Virus record (IMG/VR): IMGVR_UViG_2758568661_000004
Length of the DNA stretch: 64,000 bases
Direction: 5' to 3' (one strand)
Origin: a virus
Taxonomy: Duplodnaviria > Heunggongvirae > Uroviricota > Caudoviricetes
Below are positions 53,494-63,740 of the stretch, piece by piece. The position numbers were made by a program, and so were the translations under genes. Numbering within the stretch: the stretch's first letter is position 1; each line of letters opens with the position of its first letter. Below the pieces are notes generated by a model. That model worked only from the letters and a program-made list of their open reading frames with translations, made no database searches and was not told the origin of the DNA.

Positions 53494-54612
53494 TCACAGT
53501 GCCGGCAGGGGCGGGAGGGTGAATCCGAGGTGGATGGTGCTGCGCGTGGATGCGAGCAGGGCGCCGGGCTTCATGGAGAGGAACGTGGCGTTGTCCTCGA
53601 GGTACGCCCATTCGCCGCCCAGGTTGATGGCAGGGTCGGCGCTCACACCGTCCAGTTCGATGACGACGGAGCGGTTCGGGAGCGCATCCAGCTGCCATTT
53701 CTCGGTGAGTTCCGGTGACGGGGTGTCCGGGTTCCAGGTGACGAGAACACTGAGCTTGTCCCGCTTGGTTGCGATCACCCAGATGGCTTCGTTCGTGTAC
53801 TCGCGGTCGTCGGGGTCTTCCGGGTCGAGGTGGATCCAGTTCCCGTAGTACTTCTTGTACGTGACGGTGCGTGGGAACCGGTCGTTGATGTACCCGAACA
53901 TGGTGATGATCGACCCGGACGGCAGGGCGGTGACGTCCGCCTCGCTGGTCAGTGCCGGGTTCGGGCGGATCTGGGCAAGGAACTCGGTGACTTCGTCATC
54001 GGAAGGCACCCGATGCGATGGCTCGTCATCCGCCGGGATCGGGTACAGGATCGGCGGGTGCCCGGGGTGAACAAGCACAGTGGGGCTGGCAGGGGCAAAA
54101 GCGATCGCTTCGAGTTCGCTGATCCGTGCATCCTTCTCAGCGATGACCGCTTCGAGCTCAGCGACCTTAGCCTCAGCCACCTGTCGGAGGTTATGGGCGG
54201 TGGGGTTCCCAGCTTTCTGGACGGTGAACACGAATTCCTCATCGACGCCTTCGGTGACGAGGCGAGCTTCGACGTAGTTGATGGCTTGGTGATGGTCGAA
54301 CCAACGCCGCACCATCGTTCCGATGAGCAGGGTGGTGTGCTCCGCCTCCTCGAAGGTGACGCTTGCGACGTTGTCACGAACTTCATGCCAGCGGAGGAGG
54401 CCGTCGTTGTCAGCGACTGTGTTCGGTTTACGGCGGCCGGTTTTCACCGGACCCCACCCGTCAACGGGTGGGAAGATGCGGATGGTGTCACCGTCTGCGG
54501 ACATCATCGTCTCGCCGGTGCCGTACACACGTTGGATGGCTTCGTTGATCTCCGGGAGTGCGGTGAGGGGCATCGGGAGGGAGAACGCCGCTACAGGCTG
54601 ACGGTTGGTCAC
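53494..54612 (-). CDS. hypothetical protein
   Basis: ORF track; GTG start overlapping upstream stop (GTGA). Confidence 0.6.
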   Translation of the reverse strand: MTNRQPVAAFSLPMPLTALPEINEAIQRVYGTGETMMSADGDTIRIFPPVDGWGPVKTGRRKPNTVADNDGLLRWHEVRDNVASVTFEEAEHTTLLIGTMVRRWFDHHQAINYVEARLVTEGVDEEFVFTVQKAGNPTAHNLRQVAEAKVAELEAVIAEKDARISELEAIAFAPASPTVLVHPGHPPILYPIPADDEPSHRVPSDDEVTEFLAQIRPNPALTSEADVTALPSGSIITMFGYINDRFPRTVTYKKYYGNWIHLDPEDPDDREYTNEAIWVIATKRDKLSVLVTWNPDTPSPELTEKWQLDALPNRSVVIELDGVSADPAINLGGEWAYLEDNATFLSMKPGALLASTRSTIHLGFTLPPLPAL

Positions 54613-54989
54613 TTGTCTGTTCCTTCTGAACCCTCAGCATCTGCCGGCACGGCGGACGGGTCGGTGATCGTGGAGTCGAGGCAGTCGATGGACGGGTTCT
54701 CGGAGGTCAGGTACGTGTTCGCTGCGATGACGCAGATGACGTTGCGACCGTCGCCGAGGTTCTGCCGGATGACGGTCGTGGTCATGTCGTCACCCTCGGT
54801 GTACTCAGTCCTTGTGGACCCGATGACGACCACGGAGGTGTCCGGTGACACTGGTTCCGGTGCGGCGACCGGCTGGTCCGTCTCCATGATGGACGGGTCG
54901 GAGTCGAGGTAGTCCTGCATGGCGGAGCAGGAGGTGAGGGTGAGGGTGAGACCAGCCACAACGGCTGCGGTCACGAAAAGGTTGCGCAT
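54609..54989 (-). CDS. lipoprotein
   Basis: ORF track; MRNLFVTAAVVAGLTLTLTSCSA lipobox; class-I motif in fixed 11-nt register. Confidence 0.65.
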   Translation of the reverse strand: MRNLFVTAAVVAGLTLTLTSCSAMQDYLDSDPSIMETDQPVAAPEPVSPDTSVVVIGSTRTEYTEGDDMTTTVIRQNLGDGRNVICVIAANTYLTSENPSIDCLDSTITDPSAVPADAEGSEGTDK

Positions 54990-55016
54990 GGGATGGTCAT
55001 GCGCAGGAACTCTTGC

Positions 55017-58600: not shown

Positions 58601-58758
58601 ATGGTGGTCATGCGCAGGGTTGACGCCCATCCAACCGGATTACATCGTTACACCTTGATTACCGCTTCGCTGTAACAGGCTTTTTCCCGGTCAGCGCTTT
58701 GTTTTTAGGCTCGTTACATCCGTTACACTTCATAGGTGCATGTATATGGGAGGAAGAT

Positions 58759-58794
58759 GACATGTTTCGACGCCGGCCTGGGCGCAAACATGTC
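58759..58794 (+). terminator. plus-strand hairpin (GACATGTTTCG...CGCAAACATGTC) followed by TCTTTTCTCTT
   Basis: Sits inside a 17-codon mini-ORF preceded by GGGAGGAAG SD at 58748. Confidence 0.45.
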
Positions 58795-58957
58795 TCTTTT
58801 CTCTTAACGTAAGTAATAATGAATTGTAATCTTGTAATATATAGATAGAAGGGTGTCTCGCCCTACTCCCGTCTGGGATCCACCGTTACGCAGGTGGTGT
58901 AACGAGATGCAATCGGAGTAATCCGGGGCGACTCGTCGCGCGTTTCGGCGCTCATCT

Positions 58958-59061
58958 GTCAACCCTGGTTGACAAGACTGATTCTGAGGCCATCTGGGCG
59001 TCAACCGTGGTTGACACACGAAGTCAACGCGGGTTGACGTTTCCTGTCAACGTAGGTTGAC
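58958..59061. repeat. array of four 16-bp palindromes GTCAAC-N4-GTTGAC (operator, iteron or centromere-like)
   Basis: Copies at 58958-58973, 59000-59015, 59023-59038, 59046-59061 (spacing 42, 23, 23 bp); extra half-sites at 58620 and 59067. Confidence 0.7.
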
Positions 59062-59102
59062 GAATGCTTGACCGTTATCCCGGCCGCATCCCGGAAACAG
59101 CG

Positions 59103-59128
59103 AAAGCCGCCCACAGTCGGACGGCTTC
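59103..59128 (-). terminator. hairpin terminator after 59150..59410 gene
   Basis: AAGCCGTCC-GACTGTG-GGCGGCTT followed by TCGCTGTTTCC on minus strand, 25 nt after stop. Confidence 0.5.
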
Positions 59129-59149
59129 ACACTACGGATCGTCGGCAGC

Positions 59150-59887: not shown

Positions 59888-60274
59888 TCAGCGCATGAAC
59901 TGCGCCACCACGACCATGGCCGGGTTGTCCGTCACTTCAATGGCGGAAACGTCGGGATGGGTATTGAAGTAGTCCTCTGCCCACGCGATCGCCTCCTCGC
60001 GGTCGAAGAAGCTCCCGTTGTACCGGTTCGGGTTCGGACCGCTCTTCGGGTTCCACGAATAGCCGCCGACGGGGATCCACGAGACGTTGAATGAGCCGAC
60101 CGGACGGGAAGGGTCAAGGGCTGCAAGCAGCTTGTCAACTTCGGCGACCAGCGCTGGGGCCTCCTCGCCTCGTTCCGCTGAATACCTCTCACGGGCATCG
60201 AACAGAGCTCCACTGATTGCGGCGGCATTCCTCGGGCTGATCGTCGAAAAATCGACAGTGGACTCTGCGCTCAT
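59888..60274 (-). CDS. hypothetical protein
   Basis: ORF track; C-terminus overlaps an inverted partial motif palindrome GCGCATGAACTGCGC. Confidence 0.55.
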   Translation of the reverse strand: MSAESTVDFSTISPRNAAAISGALFDARERYSAERGEEAPALVAEVDKLLAALDPSRPVGSFNVSWIPVGGYSWNPKSGPNPNRYNGSFFDREEAIAWAEDYFNTHPDVSAIEVTDNPAMVVVAQFMR

Positions 60275-61634: not shown

Positions 61635-62489
61635 TCAGCCAGCTGCGGCTGCCTCGAATGTGAACGCACCGGTCTTGTCAGTGATGGTCACCGTGACATT
61701 CGCGGTGCTGCTGTCTGACCCTGTAGCCACACAGGTGTACACAGCACCGGCAGTGAAACCGATGTGTTCCGGGCAGGTGACGTCGGTGACGGTGACCGTT
61801 GAACCGGCAGCGACCAGCTGGGCGGTGTACTCAGTTGAGATTTGAGATTCCACGTTCTCCGACTGGGCTGTCTCGAGGACACTGCTGTCTCCGGTGACCC
61901 CGCCGGCGAGCCCGAGAGTGAACCCGAGGATGAACGGGATGAGTGCGAGTGCGGCGACGATGATGGAGATGATCCCGAGGGCTTTACCTCCGCGATGGCG
62001 TCGTTTCAAGCCGATGGACCCGAGGATAATGGCGGTGACAGCACCGATGGCGGGGATGGGTGCGTCACCGGACATGATGGCGCCGAGCAACGCGACGCCG
62101 GCGAGGATGGCTGAGCTGATGATCAGGCTGCCGCGCTTCCGCTGGCGTTCTTCCTTCCATGGCGAGCTGACCGGGGCGTTCACCGCTGCGTTGACCTGTG
62201 CAGGAGTCCACCCCTGCGTGGGCTGATGCTGCGGGGCAGGCGGGATAGCGGTGCCACCAGGCTGCTGAGGGGCACTGAACGCCGGTGCTGCTGAAGGTGC
62301 AACCAGAACCGGTTGGGCGTACGCCTGCTGCTGTGGGGCGTACTGCACGGCAGGTGTCACCGGAGGTGCTGTGATCGACACAGCCTCACGGGTGTGCGTC
62401 GACCATGATCCGTCCCACCAGCGGAGCATGTCCGGTCCAGTCGGGTCAGCTTCCGGGTCGGGGTACCAGCCGGGCTTCGGTGCGTTCAA
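61635..62489 (-). CDS. DUF2510-like membrane protein
   Basis: ORF track; N-terminal GWYPDPEADPTGPDMLRWWDGSWS; Pro-rich linker, central TM; TTG start behind GAAGGAG. Confidence 0.6.
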   Translation of the reverse strand: MNAPKPGWYPDPEADPTGPDMLRWWDGSWSTHTREAVSITAPPVTPAVQYAPQQQAYAQPVLVAPSAAPAFSAPQQPGGTAIPPAPQHQPTQGWTPAQVNAAVNAPVSSPWKEERQRKRGSLIISSAILAGVALLGAIMSGDAPIPAIGAVTAIILGSIGLKRRHRGGKALGIISIIVAALALIPFILGFTLGLAGGVTGDSSVLETAQSENVESQISTEYTAQLVAAGSTVTVTDVTCPEHIGFTAGAVYTCVATGSDSSTANVTVTITDKTGAFTFEAAAAG

Positions 62490-62607
62490 CAGTGGGCTCC
62501 TTCAAGGGTGGTTCGCCCATGCGGGGCGGTGACGCCGGACGGGCGCGAACACCACGGTAGGGGGTCCGTGAACGTGCCGGAGAAAACGCCACAGTGTTCG
62601 GCTGTTC

Positions 62608-62628
62608 CTGCGCATGGGAGATGCGCAG
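62608..62628. promoter_or_regulatory. head-to-head junction-motif palindrome CTGCGCAT-N5-ATGCGCAG in the divergent intergenic region
   Basis: Perfect 8-bp arms; only place where both motif orientations meet; lies between the minus-strand 61635..62489 and plus-strand 62718..63452 genes. Confidence 0.6.
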
Positions 62629-62717
62629 CCCTGCACTCGGTGCGGCGCGCCTCGAATTTTGGAGACCCCTTCATGAACACACCCACCGCTGCCGTACGGA
62701 CAGAGAGCGAGTAGCCG

Positions 62718-63452
62718 ATGTACAAGACTTCTGATGCCGGGCAGGTCCTCTGGGGGATCTTCGGACCGGTCATCACTGTGATCGTGATCGTTGCCATCGT
62801 GGCTGCTGTCGGGTGGGCTGGCCTCAGGTACGCCCGCCTGCGGCTGGCGAAACTGTTGGAGGAGAAGGCTGAGCTTCGGAAGATCGCTGAGCGTGCTGAG
62901 CGTTCAGCTGCTGCCCGTGCAGCGAAAGCCTCTCACGAGCTCGCCACGTTCAAATCCGGCACCCGAAGGGTCGGGTCCGACTGGGGCGGGAACCGTGCCC
63001 CTTGGAACGCTCCGTCGTCGTTGTCGTTCCGTGACCGTTCGGAGAAGCCTGCCTGGGCGACCGGTGTTCAGTCTGCTGTGGCCGCGTTCCCAGACGCGGT
63101 TGCACCCGCTGACGGTGCCGGTTTCAAGGATCTCTTCGAGGTCGCGAAGTCAACACCGGAGAGCGGCTACCTGATGTCGAAGCTTCGCGCCGCCTCGAAC
63201 GGCGCCACCGCGTCGTCCATGTTCGGTGCGCCGGACAACGTCTCGGCCGCGACGCTCCTGATCGCGGACTCGTTGGGTATCGACACCAGCAAGGTGGACG
63301 GTCTGATCCGGCAGATTGAGCAGCTTGCCGGGCAGGGGCATGTGACAGGGCAGCTGGAAATCCCGACCGATTCCGGCCTCAAGCGCCGGTACACCGTCGG
63401 CGAGCTTGCCTCGTTGATCCGTGCTGCGCAGAAGACCGCAGGCGAAGACTGA
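62718..63452 (+). CDS. membrane-anchored hypothetical protein
   Basis: ORF track; N-terminal TM; followed by terminator hairpin. Confidence 0.6.
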   Translation: MYKTSDAGQVLWGIFGPVITVIVIVAIVAAVGWAGLRYARLRLAKLLEEKAELRKIAERAERSAAARAAKASHELATFKSGTRRVGSDWGGNRAPWNAPSSLSFRDRSEKPAWATGVQSAVAAFPDAVAPADGAGFKDLFEVAKSTPESGYLMSKLRAASNGATASSMFGAPDNVSAATLLIADSLGIDTSKVDGLIRQIEQLAGQGHVTGQLEIPTDSGLKRRYTVGELASLIRAAQKTAGED

Positions 63453-63516: not shown

Positions 63517-63555
63517 GGGGCCGTGACGTCGATGAAGACGTCCGGCCCCTTTCTC
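63517..63555 (+). terminator. intrinsic terminator (GGGGCCGTGACGTC...GACGTCCGGCCCC + TTTCTC)
   Basis: ~65 nt after the stop of 62718..63452. Confidence 0.55.
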
Positions 63556-63713
63556 ATGCCCTGCCTGTCAGAGACCGCAGATGATCTCGCCGATGCCACC
63601 GGGCCGGGAACTCACCCGTGAAGACGCCGAACCGCACGCTCAGCCTGGCAATCCTGCGCATGGACACGGTGAGGCAATCCCGCCTCGCGATTAGGGTTTT
63701 CACAAACCTGGGG

Positions 63714-63740
63714 AAGCCCCGCTTCGGCGGGGCTTTTCTG
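63714..63740 (+). terminator. hairpin AAGCCCCGC-TTCG-GCGGGGCTT followed by TTCTGGTT
   Basis: 9-bp stem with TTCG tetraloop; preceded at 63652-63663 by a plus-orientation class-I motif copy. Confidence 0.5.

What the first reader, a model, noticed from the sequence alone, without database searches (positions are those of the whole stretch)
62597..62720. Strand-switch point marked by a perfect head-to-head motif palindrome
After about 62 kb of exclusively minus-strand genes, gene orientation switches at 62489/62718. In the 228-bp divergent gap the junction motif appears in both orientations, fused as CTGCGCAT-GGGAG-ATGCGCAG (62608-62628), a perfect 8-bp-arm palindrome. A weaker minus-type copy (CCGCATGGG at 62518) sits nearer the leftward gene. 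A second, partial inverted pair (GCGCATGAACTGCGC) lies at 59891-59905. If the motif is a binding site or promoter element, this is a natural bidirectional control point. Given the extreme strand monotony, the switch might also coincide with a replication origin or terminus, or an element boundary.
Basis: partly seen in the sequence, partly recalled or inferred. Interest (0 to 1): 0.55.

Follow-up and report, generated by a model that had tools for sequence, protein, structure and literature searches.

The report
Rightward promoter motif with mirrored half
The palindrome is one rightward-pointing copy of a promoter-like signal that precedes more than half the genes of an undescribed mobile element of Microbacteriaceae, followed by an imperfect mirror half; it heads a two-gene inverted island and is not a replication origin, terminus or element boundary.

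Summary
CTGCGCAT-GGGAG-ATGCGCAG lies at 62608-62628 in the 228-bp gap between a leftward gene (start 62489) and a rightward gene (start 62718).

- The "junction motif" is a strictly direction-bound signal, TYC-TGCGCATG-R (F1). There are 43 copies in 82.7 kb, and all point the same way as the gene downstream.
- A pyrimidine-purine step sits 15-16 nt after the T of TGCGCATG. In 15 of the 43 copies a start codon sits exactly at +16.
- This is the geometry of an actinobacterial -10-only promoter that often makes leaderless mRNA.
- A second class, yGCCGCATGyCT (F2), has about 20 copies.
- Related elements, including one in Leifsonia sp. Leaf264, keep the +16 geometry with their own motif variants.

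The left arm of the palindrome is a top-scoring F1 copy serving the rightward gene. The right arm is a poor mirror copy (below 4 bits).

Minus-strand genes resume 13 bp beyond the window's end, motif copies continue on both sides, and cumulative GC skew does not turn. Origin, terminus and boundary readings are therefore not supported. The factor that reads the motif is unidentified, and there is no transcript evidence.

The parts
62604..62618 (+). Canonical F1 promoter-like motif copy, GTTCCTGCGCATGGG. It forms the left arm of the palindrome and points towards the rightward gene.
   Evidence: PWM score 22.4 bits, rank 8 of all positions on both strands of the 82.7-kb supercontig. Sequence read.
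62625..62625 (+). Predicted transcription start: G at +16 from the T of TGCGCATG, preceded by C at +15.
   Evidence: Inferred from the family-wide pyrimidine(+15)/purine(+16) signal and from start codons at +16 in 15 of 43 copies. There is no transcript evidence.
62621..62628 (-). Mirror arm ATGCGCAG. On the minus strand it reads CTGCGCATC, preceded by GGG. It is a degenerate, probably non-functional copy.
   Evidence: Perfect 8-nt complement of 62608-62615. It scores below 4 bits with the F1 matrix. It is the only CTGCGCAT-not-G variant in 82.7 kb.
62517..62527 (-). Degenerate motif-like sequence, CCCCGCATGGG on the minus strand. It sits back-to-back with the plus copy, about 20 nt upstream of the SD (GAAGGAG) and TTG start of the leftward gene. 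It may be a weak leftward promoter.
   Evidence: Sequence. It scores below 4 bits in both matrices. The 7-mer CCGCATG is listed.
61635..62489 (-). Leftward gene: a 284-aa membrane protein with DUF2510 and DUF4333 domains.
   Evidence: Pfam hits, database gene call, translation.
62673..62714 (+). A 13-codon upstream ORF with its own SD (GGAG). Its stop codon lies 3 nt before the ATG of the 244-aa gene, so translational coupling is possible.
   Evidence: Read directly from the sequence. Function is inferred only.
62718..63452 (+). Rightward gene: a 244-aa ORFan with an N-terminal transmembrane helix.
   Evidence: Codon log-likelihood 0.215 per codon, the same as confident genes. Translation. The only match among 5.8 billion proteins is itself.
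63518..63549 (+). Imperfect hairpin after the 244-aa gene, terminator-like with a weak T tract.
   Evidence: Inverted repeat I6.
63650..63664 (+). Second plus-oriented F1 copy, AATCCTGCGCATGGA.
   Evidence: PWM score 21.4 bits, rank 17. Context.
63671..63740 (+). Predicted structured RNA of about 70 nt. It starts at +16 of the second plus copy and ends in a strong terminator hairpin (63714-63735) followed by TTTTCTGG.
   Evidence: Fold energy -37 kcal/mol, z = -3.8. Terminator-like site. Sub-threshold Rfam sRNA matches, RsmY 28 bits against a gathering score of 57.
63752..64000 (+). Second plus-strand ORF: an 82-aa small membrane protein, the last gene of the island.
   Evidence: Database gene call, codon log-likelihood 0.133 per codon, translation.
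54982..55005 (-). The only other motif-plus-mirror palindrome in the element: CTGCGCATG-ACCATCC-CATGCGCA. Its mirror arm contains the leaderless ATG of gene 54609-54989.
   Evidence: The independent gene call starts at 54989, which is +16.

Best explanation
**What the element is.** The window is part of a large (at least 83 kb) undescribed mobile element of Microbacteriaceae. More than half of its genes are preceded by one of two short, nearly invariant, direction-bound motifs:
- F1 = TYC-TGCGCATG-R
- F2 = yGCCGCATGyCT

**How the motifs most likely work.** They are most likely -10-type promoter elements without a -35 box.
- In F1, the A of CATG falls at -11 relative to a start site 16 nt after the T of TGCGCATG.
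- Where a start codon sits exactly at that position, the mRNA would be leaderless.
- Elsewhere a leader of 26-123 nt with its own Shine-Dalgarno sequence follows.

**What the palindrome is.** At 62608-62628 there is one strong plus-oriented F1 copy that fires rightward from about 62625 into a small inverted island. The island holds a 13-codon upstream ORF, a 244-aa membrane-protein ORFan, a second F1 copy that drives a terminated RNA of about 70 nt, and an 82-aa membrane protein. The mirror half ATGCGCAG is a degenerate reverse copy and is probably incidental.

**What the strand switch is.** It is an internal two-gene inversion of orientation within the element. It is not a replication landmark and not an end of the element.

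**Shown and inferred.** Shown here: sequence, orientation, spacing, conservation in relatives, skew and gene order. Inferred: that the motif is a promoter, where the start site lies, and that the mirror arm is non-functional. The protein that reads the motif was not identified.
For: **Orientation.** There are 43 exact TGCGCATG copies in 82.7 kb. Forty are on the minus strand among minus-strand genes. Three are on the plus strand, each directly upstream of a plus-strand gene, at -2538, 62609 and 63655.

**Motif shape.** Conservation is limited to positions -5 to +8 plus Y(+15), R(+16) and W(+17). There is no -35 signal back to -50.

**Spacing.**
- A start codon opening a long ORF (at least 45 aa) lies exactly at +16 in 15 of the 43 copies.
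- The 28 copies with leaders still show Y(+15) in 23, G(+16) in 22 and A(+17) in 17. The signal is therefore not just the start codon.
- This matches what is known of mycobacterial promoters: a -10 element 7-12 bp upstream of the start, no -35, a purine at +1 with a pyrimidine at -1, and 22-26% of genes expressed as leaderless transcripts (PMC3898074).

**Independent gene calls.** Database gene starts coincide with +16 for the UvrD-like helicase, the DUF2637 gene and others.

**Invariance.** Only about 21 one-mismatch variants occur on both strands, against 44 perfect copies.

**Second class.** F2 has about 20 intergenic copies, all in the gene direction, with ATG at +17 to +19.

**Relatives.** They were found through the UvrD-like helicase (58-71% identity) and share gene order.
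- They keep the geometry with their own variants: GCCGCGCATG in three metagenome contigs and CCGCACATG in Leifsonia sp. Leaf264.
- Start codons lie at +16 in 10/14, 5/10, 8/12 and 2/7 copies.
- Copies on either strand follow gene orientation.

**This site.** The plus copy scores 22.4 bits (rank 8). The mirror arm and the copy at 62517-62527 score below 4 bits.

**Not a replication landmark or boundary.** Skew rises steadily across the region. Minus-strand genes and motif copies resume to the right.
Against: - There is no transcript or 5'-end evidence.
- The -10-like hexamer CATGRN lacks the T at -7 of the housekeeping consensus TANNNT, so the principal sigma factor is an unlikely reader.
- No sigma factor, RNA polymerase or clear DNA-binding regulator was detected among about 90 proteins of the window.
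- Two motif-plus-mirror palindromes in one element exceed the chance expectation (P(at least 2) = 0.003), and a third occurs in a relative at a divergent gap. A function for the mirror arm cannot be excluded.
- The leftward gene has no recognisable promoter of either class, which leaves room for the mirror arm to serve it.
- The orthologous region in relatives could not be retrieved.
Confidence: 0.68

Rival explanations
1. The two arms are two overlapping face-to-face promoters and form a true bidirectional or toggle control point. The plus copy would start at 62625 and the mirror copy at about 62611 on the minus strand. RNA polymerase could occupy only one at a time, so the leftward operon and the rightward island would be expressed alternately.
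For: - The leftward gene has no other F1 or F2 copy in the gap.
- The mirror arm keeps 8 of the 9 core bases.
- Mirror arms next to motif copies are commoner than chance.
- A relative has the same order (minus copy, plus copy, mirrored core) at a divergent gap next to the homologue of the HAD_SAK_2-like gene.
Against: - The mirror arm deviates at four conserved positions (-3, -2, +7, +8) and scores below 4 bits.
- No other CTGCGCAT-not-G copy exists in 82.7 kb, so there is no sign that the variant is tolerated.
- Divergent gaps elsewhere in the family use back-to-back pairs.
- The three mirror arms lie at different distances from their motif copy (5, 7 and 12 nt). Each begins with ATG-CGC-A, which in one case is the called start codon and in a second case one of two candidate starts of the downstream gene.
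Confidence: 0.12
2. The motif is an operator for an element-encoded DNA-binding protein, comparable to the asymmetric stoperators of cluster A mycobacteriophages. The palindrome would be a double site where two molecules bind and shut down or insulate the island.
For: - There are many nearly identical, asymmetric, co-oriented sites at gene junctions.
- The variants are element-specific, which suggests co-evolution with a cognate protein.
- A GTCAAC half-site of a separate palindromic operator array abuts one F1 copy at 58616-58625.
Against: - The fixed +16 spacing to start codons, and a pyrimidine-purine step at +15/+16 even where no start codon follows, are properties of start-site selection rather than of an operator.
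- The core is not a dimer-type palindrome in F2 or in the Leaf264 variant.
- The spacing of the mirror arms varies.
- No repressor-like protein was found.
- An operator that overlaps the -10 element of every promoter is not excluded.
Confidence: 0.12
3. The strand switch marks a replication origin or terminus, or an end of the element, and the palindrome is its cis-acting site.
For: The window is strongly strand-monotonous, and the palindrome lies in one of its few non-coding gaps.
Against: - Skew shows no inflection.
- Orientation reverts after two genes.
- The same motif families continue on both sides.
- The gap has no iterons, no AT-rich stretch and 66% GC. The window has no tRNA.
- No flanking inverted repeats suggest an invertible or inserted segment.
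Confidence: 0.03
4. The palindrome acts at the RNA level, as a hairpin that terminates, stabilises or marks a processing site in transcripts crossing the gap.
For: An 8-bp stem with a 5-nt loop folds at -14.8 kcal/mol.
Against: - The fold is no better than shuffled sequence (z = -1.2 and -0.8), and no U tract follows on either strand.
- A transcript starting at +16 would lack the 5' arm.
- No transcription unit is known to enter the gap from outside.
Confidence: 0.03

Closest known systems
Actinobacterial -10-only promoters that give leaderless mRNAs (Mycobacterium tuberculosis TSS map, PMC3898074)
   Same: There is no -35 element. An A lies at -11. The conserved block ends about 7-8 nt before the start. 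A purine at +1 is preceded by a pyrimidine. About a third of the copies place the start codon at the predicted start site.
   Different: The hexamer is CATGRN, not TANNNT, and lacks the T at -7. Conservation extends upstream to about -21 and is almost invariant within one element. Two classes and element-specific variants exist.
Sets of repeated phage-specific promoters, for example T4 late promoters (TATAAATA, -10 only, read by gp55) or T7-type promoters. This comparison rests on my own knowledge.
   Same: One short, highly uniform motif is repeated before many genes of one mobile element. It differs from host promoters and occurs in classes.
   Different: No cognate sigma factor or polymerase gene was found here. 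The element has no detectable phage structural genes. One relative lies on a 701-kb Leifsonia contig and so appears to be integrated.
Stoperators of cluster A mycobacteriophages (L5 gp71 sites). This comparison rests on my own knowledge.
   Same: Dozens of asymmetric sites of about 13 bp lie in short intergenic gaps, all oriented with transcription.
   Different: Stoperators have no fixed distance to start codons. Here the +16 register is strict. No repressor homologue was found.
Start-associated sequences of cluster K mycobacteriophages. This comparison rests on my own knowledge.
   Same: A conserved motif lies just upstream of many start codons, in the gene direction.
   Different: Start-associated sequences include the ribosome-binding site. 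Here the motif has no Shine-Dalgarno complementarity. It precedes either a start codon with no leader or a long leader that carries its own SD.
Face-to-face promoter switches of temperate phages such as 186 and P2. This comparison rests on my own knowledge and applies only to the rival reading.
   Same: Two promoters point at each other, so that their transcription interferes.
   Different: Here the second promoter is a degenerate half-site that overlaps the first, and its activity is unsupported.

Membership tests
Sigma-70-family -10-type promoter (actinobacterial, leaderless-capable) | Conserved A at -11 and a conserved block 7-12 nt upstream of the start | tested here: met
   The A of CATG is invariant and falls at -11 when the start is at +16.
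Sigma-70-family -10-type promoter (actinobacterial, leaderless-capable) | T at -7 and T at -12 (the housekeeping TANNNT consensus) | tested here: not met
   Position -12 is C in every copy. Position -7 (index +9) is unconserved: G 18, A 7, C 7, T 7. The motif is therefore not a housekeeping-type -10 element.
Sigma-70-family -10-type promoter (actinobacterial, leaderless-capable) | Pyrimidine at -1 and purine at +1 at a fixed distance from the motif | tested here: met
   In the 28 copies with leaders, Y(+15) occurs in 23 and R(+16) in 26. The same holds in four relatives.
Sigma-70-family -10-type promoter (actinobacterial, leaderless-capable) | Primary 5'-triphosphate transcript ends at the predicted position | not testable with these tools
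   No transcriptome data are available for this element.
Stoperator-type repressor sites (cluster A mycobacteriophages) | Many asymmetric sites co-oriented with transcription | tested here: met
   All 43 copies are co-oriented with the downstream gene.
Stoperator-type repressor sites (cluster A mycobacteriophages) | A cognate immunity repressor encoded by the element | tested here: inconclusive
   No repressor-like family was detected in the window's proteins. There is only one HTH_23 hit in an unidentified member and a weak RHH_9 hit. The element is incomplete.
Replication origin or terminus | Extremum of cumulative GC skew at the site | tested here: not met
   Skew rises steadily from -9.7 kb to +73 kb, with only local dips under the plus-strand islands.
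Replication origin or terminus | Iterons or DnaA-box-like repeats with an AT-rich unwinding stretch | tested here: not met
   The gap has 66% GC and no repeats other than the palindrome. Such features do occur at 58631-59149.
End of a mobile element (att site) | A change of gene content or signals across the site, or a tRNA, integrase or direct repeats | tested here: not met
   The same F1 and F2 motifs lie on both sides. The window and L001 contain no tRNA. No integrase family was detected.
Invertible DNA switch | Matching inverted repeats at both ends of the segment, plus a recombinase | tested here: not met
   No convincing inverted repeats flank 62.6-64.1 kb. No recombinase was detected.
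Intrinsic terminator | G+C-rich hairpin followed by a U tract | tested here: not met
   No T run follows either strand of the palindrome, and the terminator scan does not report it.

The most novel reading that the evidence does not exclude
This family of Microbacteriaceae mobile elements runs its own transcription programme through an unidentified factor, either a sigma-like protein or a polymerase. The factor would recognise YGCRCATG about 8-11 nt upstream of the start, and its specificity would co-evolve element by element (TGCGCATG, CGCGCATG, CGCACATG). The head-to-head palindrome at 62608-62628 would be a site where this factor can load in either direction, giving a mutually exclusive toggle between the leftward operon and the rightward island with its small RNA.
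Probability: 0.1. Interest if true: 0.6.

Novelty: new variant of a known kind. Interest (0 to 1): 0.35.

Why it matters
The palindrome on its own is a minor feature. What it belongs to is more useful. A previously undescribed family of large mobile elements in Microbacteriaceae places a nearly invariant promoter-like motif without a -35 box in front of most of its genes, and many of those genes would then be expressed from leaderless mRNAs.

- The motif comes in two classes and varies in sequence from element to element.
- If it is confirmed as a promoter, every occurrence marks a transcription start. That would fix many gene starts in otherwise ORFan-rich DNA.
- It would also provide a compact promoter of about 25 bp for high-GC actinobacteria.
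- It points to an unidentified specificity factor.
- One relative sits in a cultured strain, Leifsonia sp. Leaf264, so these ideas can be tested directly.

Tried and rejected
- **DNA similarity.** Megablast of the region against phage and plasmid collections found no match.
- **Exact source in IMG/VR.** Not found.
- **Relatives through the 244-aa gene.** There were none in genome contigs, and the only match among 5.8 billion proteins was the protein itself.
- **DUF4192 protein.** The only homologue has 34% identity and sits in an unrelated chromosomal context.
- **Two-motif DNA patterns in IMG/VR, JGI metagenomes and GTDB genomes.** They returned only unrelated hits, mostly coding (Leu-Arg-Met codons, tandem-repeat proteins).
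- **Best sortase match.** The Arthrobacter replicon concerned holds a single chance motif copy in 40.7 kb, so no motif array.
- **tblastn of the ligase and the SprT-like protein against phages.** Only distant hits.
- **Family searches of 68 further ORFs (Pfam, PHROGs, NCBIfam).** No sigma factor, polymerase, phage structural or type IV secretion families.
- **PDB sequence searches of three conserved unknown proteins.** Nothing useful.
- **Literature.** Searches for CTGCGCATG, GCCGCGCATG and the SRA run number found nothing relevant.
- **Integron-cassette (attC) reading.** Rejected, because many junctions are only about 20 nt long.
- **Chi- or KOPS-like strand-polarity signal.** Rejected, because the copies are confined to gene junctions at a fixed register to start codons.
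- **Target search for the predicted small RNA.** No significant complementarity within the element.
- **tRNA-Arg call in L002.** It overlaps the DUF2637 gene and was disregarded.
Full report
**1. The observation**

The sequence at 62608-62628 is CTGCGCAT-GGGAG-ATGCGCAG. It is a perfect inverted repeat with 8-nt arms and a 5-nt spacer. It lies in the 228-bp gap between a minus-strand gene (61635-62489, TTG start with a GAAGGAG SD) and a plus-strand gene (62718-63452). An independent database gene call on an overlapping contig gives the same coordinates.

A codon-usage log-likelihood scan trained on the long genes finds no credible plus-strand gene anywhere in 1-62489.

The two other items in the finding also exist:
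- The copy at 62517-62527 reads CCCCGCATGGG on the minus strand. It has two mismatches in an otherwise invariant core.
- The pair at 59891-59905 has only 5-bp arms and lies inside the 3' end of a gene.

**2. What the junction motif is**

I built an 82.7-kb supercontig from the window plus two overlapping Logan contigs of run SRR7126390. On it there are 44 exact copies of TGCGCATG.
- One plus-strand copy, at 54983, is merely the mirror of a minus-strand copy.
- Of the other 43, 40 lie on the minus strand among minus-strand genes.
- The remaining three lie on the plus strand, each directly upstream of a plus-strand gene. They stand at -2538 (before a DUF2637 gene to the left of the window), at 62609 and at 63655.

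Conservation covers G-w-T-Y-C-TGCGCATG-R and then a pyrimidine, a purine and A/T at +15, +16 and +17, counted from the T of TGCGCATG. Nothing is conserved further upstream to -50, so there is no -35 element.

In 15 of the 43 copies an ATG or GTG that opens a long ORF (at least 45 aa) lies exactly at +16. Independent gene calls agree for the UvrD-like helicase, the DUF2637 gene and several others. The other 28 copies have leaders of 26-123 nt with a Shine-Dalgarno sequence. They still show Y(+15) in 23, G(+16) in 22 and A(+17) in 17, so the +16 signal does not depend on the start codon.

With a start at +16 the invariant A of CATG falls at -11. This is the architecture reported for mycobacterial promoters: a -10 element 7-12 bp upstream of the start, no -35, a purine at +1 with a pyrimidine at -1, and 22-26% of genes expressed as leaderless transcripts (PMC3898074). 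The hexamer CATGRN is not TANNNT, however. The housekeeping sigma factor is therefore an unlikely reader.

The motif is nearly invariant. Only about 21 one-mismatch variants of CTGCGCATG occur on both strands, which is roughly the chance level.

**3. A second class**

While examining the other divergent gap I found a second motif, yGCCGCATGyCT (F2). It has about 20 intergenic copies, all in the gene direction, with a leaderless ATG at +17 to +19. F2 precedes the three giant Ig/reprolysin genes, the AI-2E transporter, the D12 methyltransferase and others. Together F1 and F2 precede more than half of the genes.

**4. Relatives**

The genes next to the switch are ORFans or have only distant homologues. 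The UvrD-like helicase to the left of the window does have close homologues, in Leifsonia sp. Leaf264 (71% identity, on a 701-kb contig) and in several metagenome contigs (55-58%).

Their neighbourhoods share gene order with this element: flotillin, a small opposite-strand island containing DUF2637, DnaJ-domain proteins, and the helicase.

Each relative has its own version of the motif in the same register:
- ctGCCGCGCATG in three metagenome contigs;
- tCCGCACATGrrG in Leaf264.

Start codons lie at +16 in 10/14, 5/10, 8/12 and 2/7 copies. Most of the remaining copies have Y-R at +15/+16. Copies on either strand follow gene orientation. In all four loci the helicase gene starts exactly 16 nt after the motif. 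F2-like GCC(G/A)CATGTCT is also present in the relatives.

Conserved geometry combined with drifting sequence is strong evidence of function. It also hints at a cognate factor that differs between elements. No sigma factor, polymerase or clear regulator was found among the window's proteins.

**5. The palindrome in this light**

The left arm, with its flanks (GTTCCTGCGCATGGG), is among the best F1 copies of the element at 22.4 bits, rank 8. The predicted start at 62625 has the required C-G step.

From there the transcript would run through a 93-nt leader that carries a 13-codon upstream ORF with its own SD. The stop codon of that ORF lies 3 nt before the ATG of the 244-aa gene.

The right arm read on the minus strand is GGG-CTGCGCATC-T.
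- It deviates from the consensus at four conserved positions and scores below 4 bits.
- It is the only CTGCGCAT-not-G variant in 82.7 kb.
- The copy at 62517-62527 also scores below 4 bits, so the leftward gene has no recognisable F1 or F2 promoter.

Is the mirror arm more than chance?
- A perfect 8-nt mirror within 30 nt of a copy is expected 0.078 times per 43 copies. Two are seen, which gives P = 0.003.
- Several bases of each arm are forced. The C-G of the arm here is the Y-R step at +15/+16. In the 55005 case the CATG of the arm is the leaderless start.
- A third example lies in a relative, L092 at 1414.
- The three mirror arms lie 5, 7 and 12 nt from their motif copy, and each begins with ATG-CGC-A.
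- This variable spacing argues against an operator of fixed geometry.
- Typical divergent gaps in the family carry back-to-back pairs instead: F2 and F1 at -2582/-2538 here, and CATGCGCGgcacCTGCCGCATGTCT in L094.

I therefore read the mirror arm as probably incidental. I give about 0.12 to each of two alternatives: a face-to-face promoter toggle, and a reading in which the motif is a protein operator and the palindrome a double binding site.

**6. The strand switch**

The overlapping contig shows that the plus-strand stretch comprises only two genes, a 244-aa and an 82-aa membrane protein. A small minus-strand ORF begins 13 bp after the window's end, and minus-strand genes continue for at least 9 kb. 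These carry F1 copies at about 65.7, 66.8 and 67.3 kb and an F2 copy at 71.6 kb.

- Cumulative GC skew rises throughout and dips only under the three plus-strand islands.
- The gap has 66% GC and no iterons.
- The window contains no tRNA.
- No inverted repeats flank the island.

Origin, terminus, element-boundary and invertible-switch readings therefore all fail the tests I could apply. A similar small island (DUF2637) lies to the left of the window and is conserved in the relatives. A third plus-strand pair, an antitoxin-like gene with a RES toxin, has no motif. Strand switches in this family are small and local, and their positions vary between elements.

**7. What the element is**

Its GC content is about 63%. 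It has no DNA match in the phage or plasmid collections, and most of its ORFs have no family.

Recognisable genes include:
- a sortase, a pilin-like protein and three Ig/reprolysin proteins of 1148-1670 aa;
- two M23 peptidases, VanZ, flotillin and an AI-2E transporter;
- DUF4192, a SprT-like protein, an ATP-dependent ligase, a D12 methyltransferase and a SocA/Panacea protein.

The best protein matches are to Microbacterium, Arthrobacter, Leifsonia and Agromyces. Compared with the Leaf264 relative, about 51 kb of the window (roughly 1.0-51.9 kb) is additional cargo. I could not decide whether the element is a plasmid, an integrative element or a prophage-like element.

**8. Verdict**

It is not supported for bidirectional control, origin, terminus or boundary.

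The promoter reading rests on orientation, register and conservation across elements. It does not rest on transcript data, and the factor that reads the motif is unknown.

Noticed in passing
window 58631-59149: A 519-bp non-coding gap with the lowest GC content of the window (0.52). It holds four 17-bp palindromes GTCAAC-N5-GTTGAC (58958-59062, spaced 42, 23 and 23 nt). A GTCAAC half-site abuts the F1 copy at 58616-58625. It also holds an AT-rich stretch of about 60 bp (around 58790-58850), several GTAACG/TGTAAC repeats, and a terminator-like hairpin at about 59095-59130. This looks like an operator array, or an origin- or partition-like region. It is a far better candidate for a regulatory or replication hub than the palindrome. 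The adjacent 97-aa protein has only a weak ribbon-helix-helix hit.
   Followed up: partly
whole window and flanks; for example window 56562, 39821, 21330, 16843, 8177: A second junction motif class, F2 (yGCCGCATGyCT), with about 20 copies, all in the gene direction. A leaderless ATG lies at +17 to +19. F2 precedes the three giant Ig/reprolysin genes, the AI-2E transporter and the methyltransferase. F2-like GCC(G/A)CATGTCT also occurs in the related elements.
   Followed up: partly
window 63671-63740 (+): The second plus-oriented F1 copy (63655) is followed, from its predicted start, by a three-hairpin RNA of about 70 nt. It ends in a 13-bp terminator stem plus UUUUCUGG (z = -3.8) and gives sub-threshold Rfam sRNA matches. 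No complementary target was found within the element.
   Followed up: partly
window about 1014-51900, compared with L090 (Leifsonia sp. Leaf264): In the Leaf264 relative the flotillin homologue (77% identity) lies only about 1 kb from homologues of window genes 310-1014. About 51 kb of the window is therefore extra cargo relative to that element. This cargo includes the sortase, the pilin-like protein, the giant adhesin-like proteins, SprT, the ligase and the methyltransferase.
   Followed up: partly
L001 14600-16038 (equivalent to window coordinates 67317-68755, beyond the window): A plus-strand pair consisting of a 270-aa protein and a RES-domain toxin, with no F1 or F2 copy upstream. It is probably an acquired toxin-antitoxin cassette with its own promoter. 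RES pairs also occur in relatives L092 and L094.
   Followed up: no
window 64101 equivalent (L001 about 11384), plus strand: A one-mismatch F1 copy (TACTCTGCGGATGAA, 11.6 bits, the best-scoring non-member). It points rightward, lies inside a small minus-strand ORF just past the island, and has no plus-strand gene downstream. It could be a relic or an antisense promoter.
   Followed up: no
window 62673-62714 (+): A 13-codon upstream ORF with SD GGAG. It ends 3 nt before the ATG of the 244-aa gene, so translational coupling or leader-peptide control is possible.
   Followed up: no
whole window: GC skew is positive on the plus strand although nearly all genes are on the minus strand, so the coding strand has more C than G. 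The skew dips only under the plus-strand islands, which means it tracks gene orientation.
   Followed up: partly
L094 15039-19988 and L095 14534-19342: The relatives carry a methyltransferase-helicase fusion protein of about 1600 aa, preceded by the motif with GTG at +16. No counterpart was seen in the 82.7 kb available for this element.
   Followed up: no
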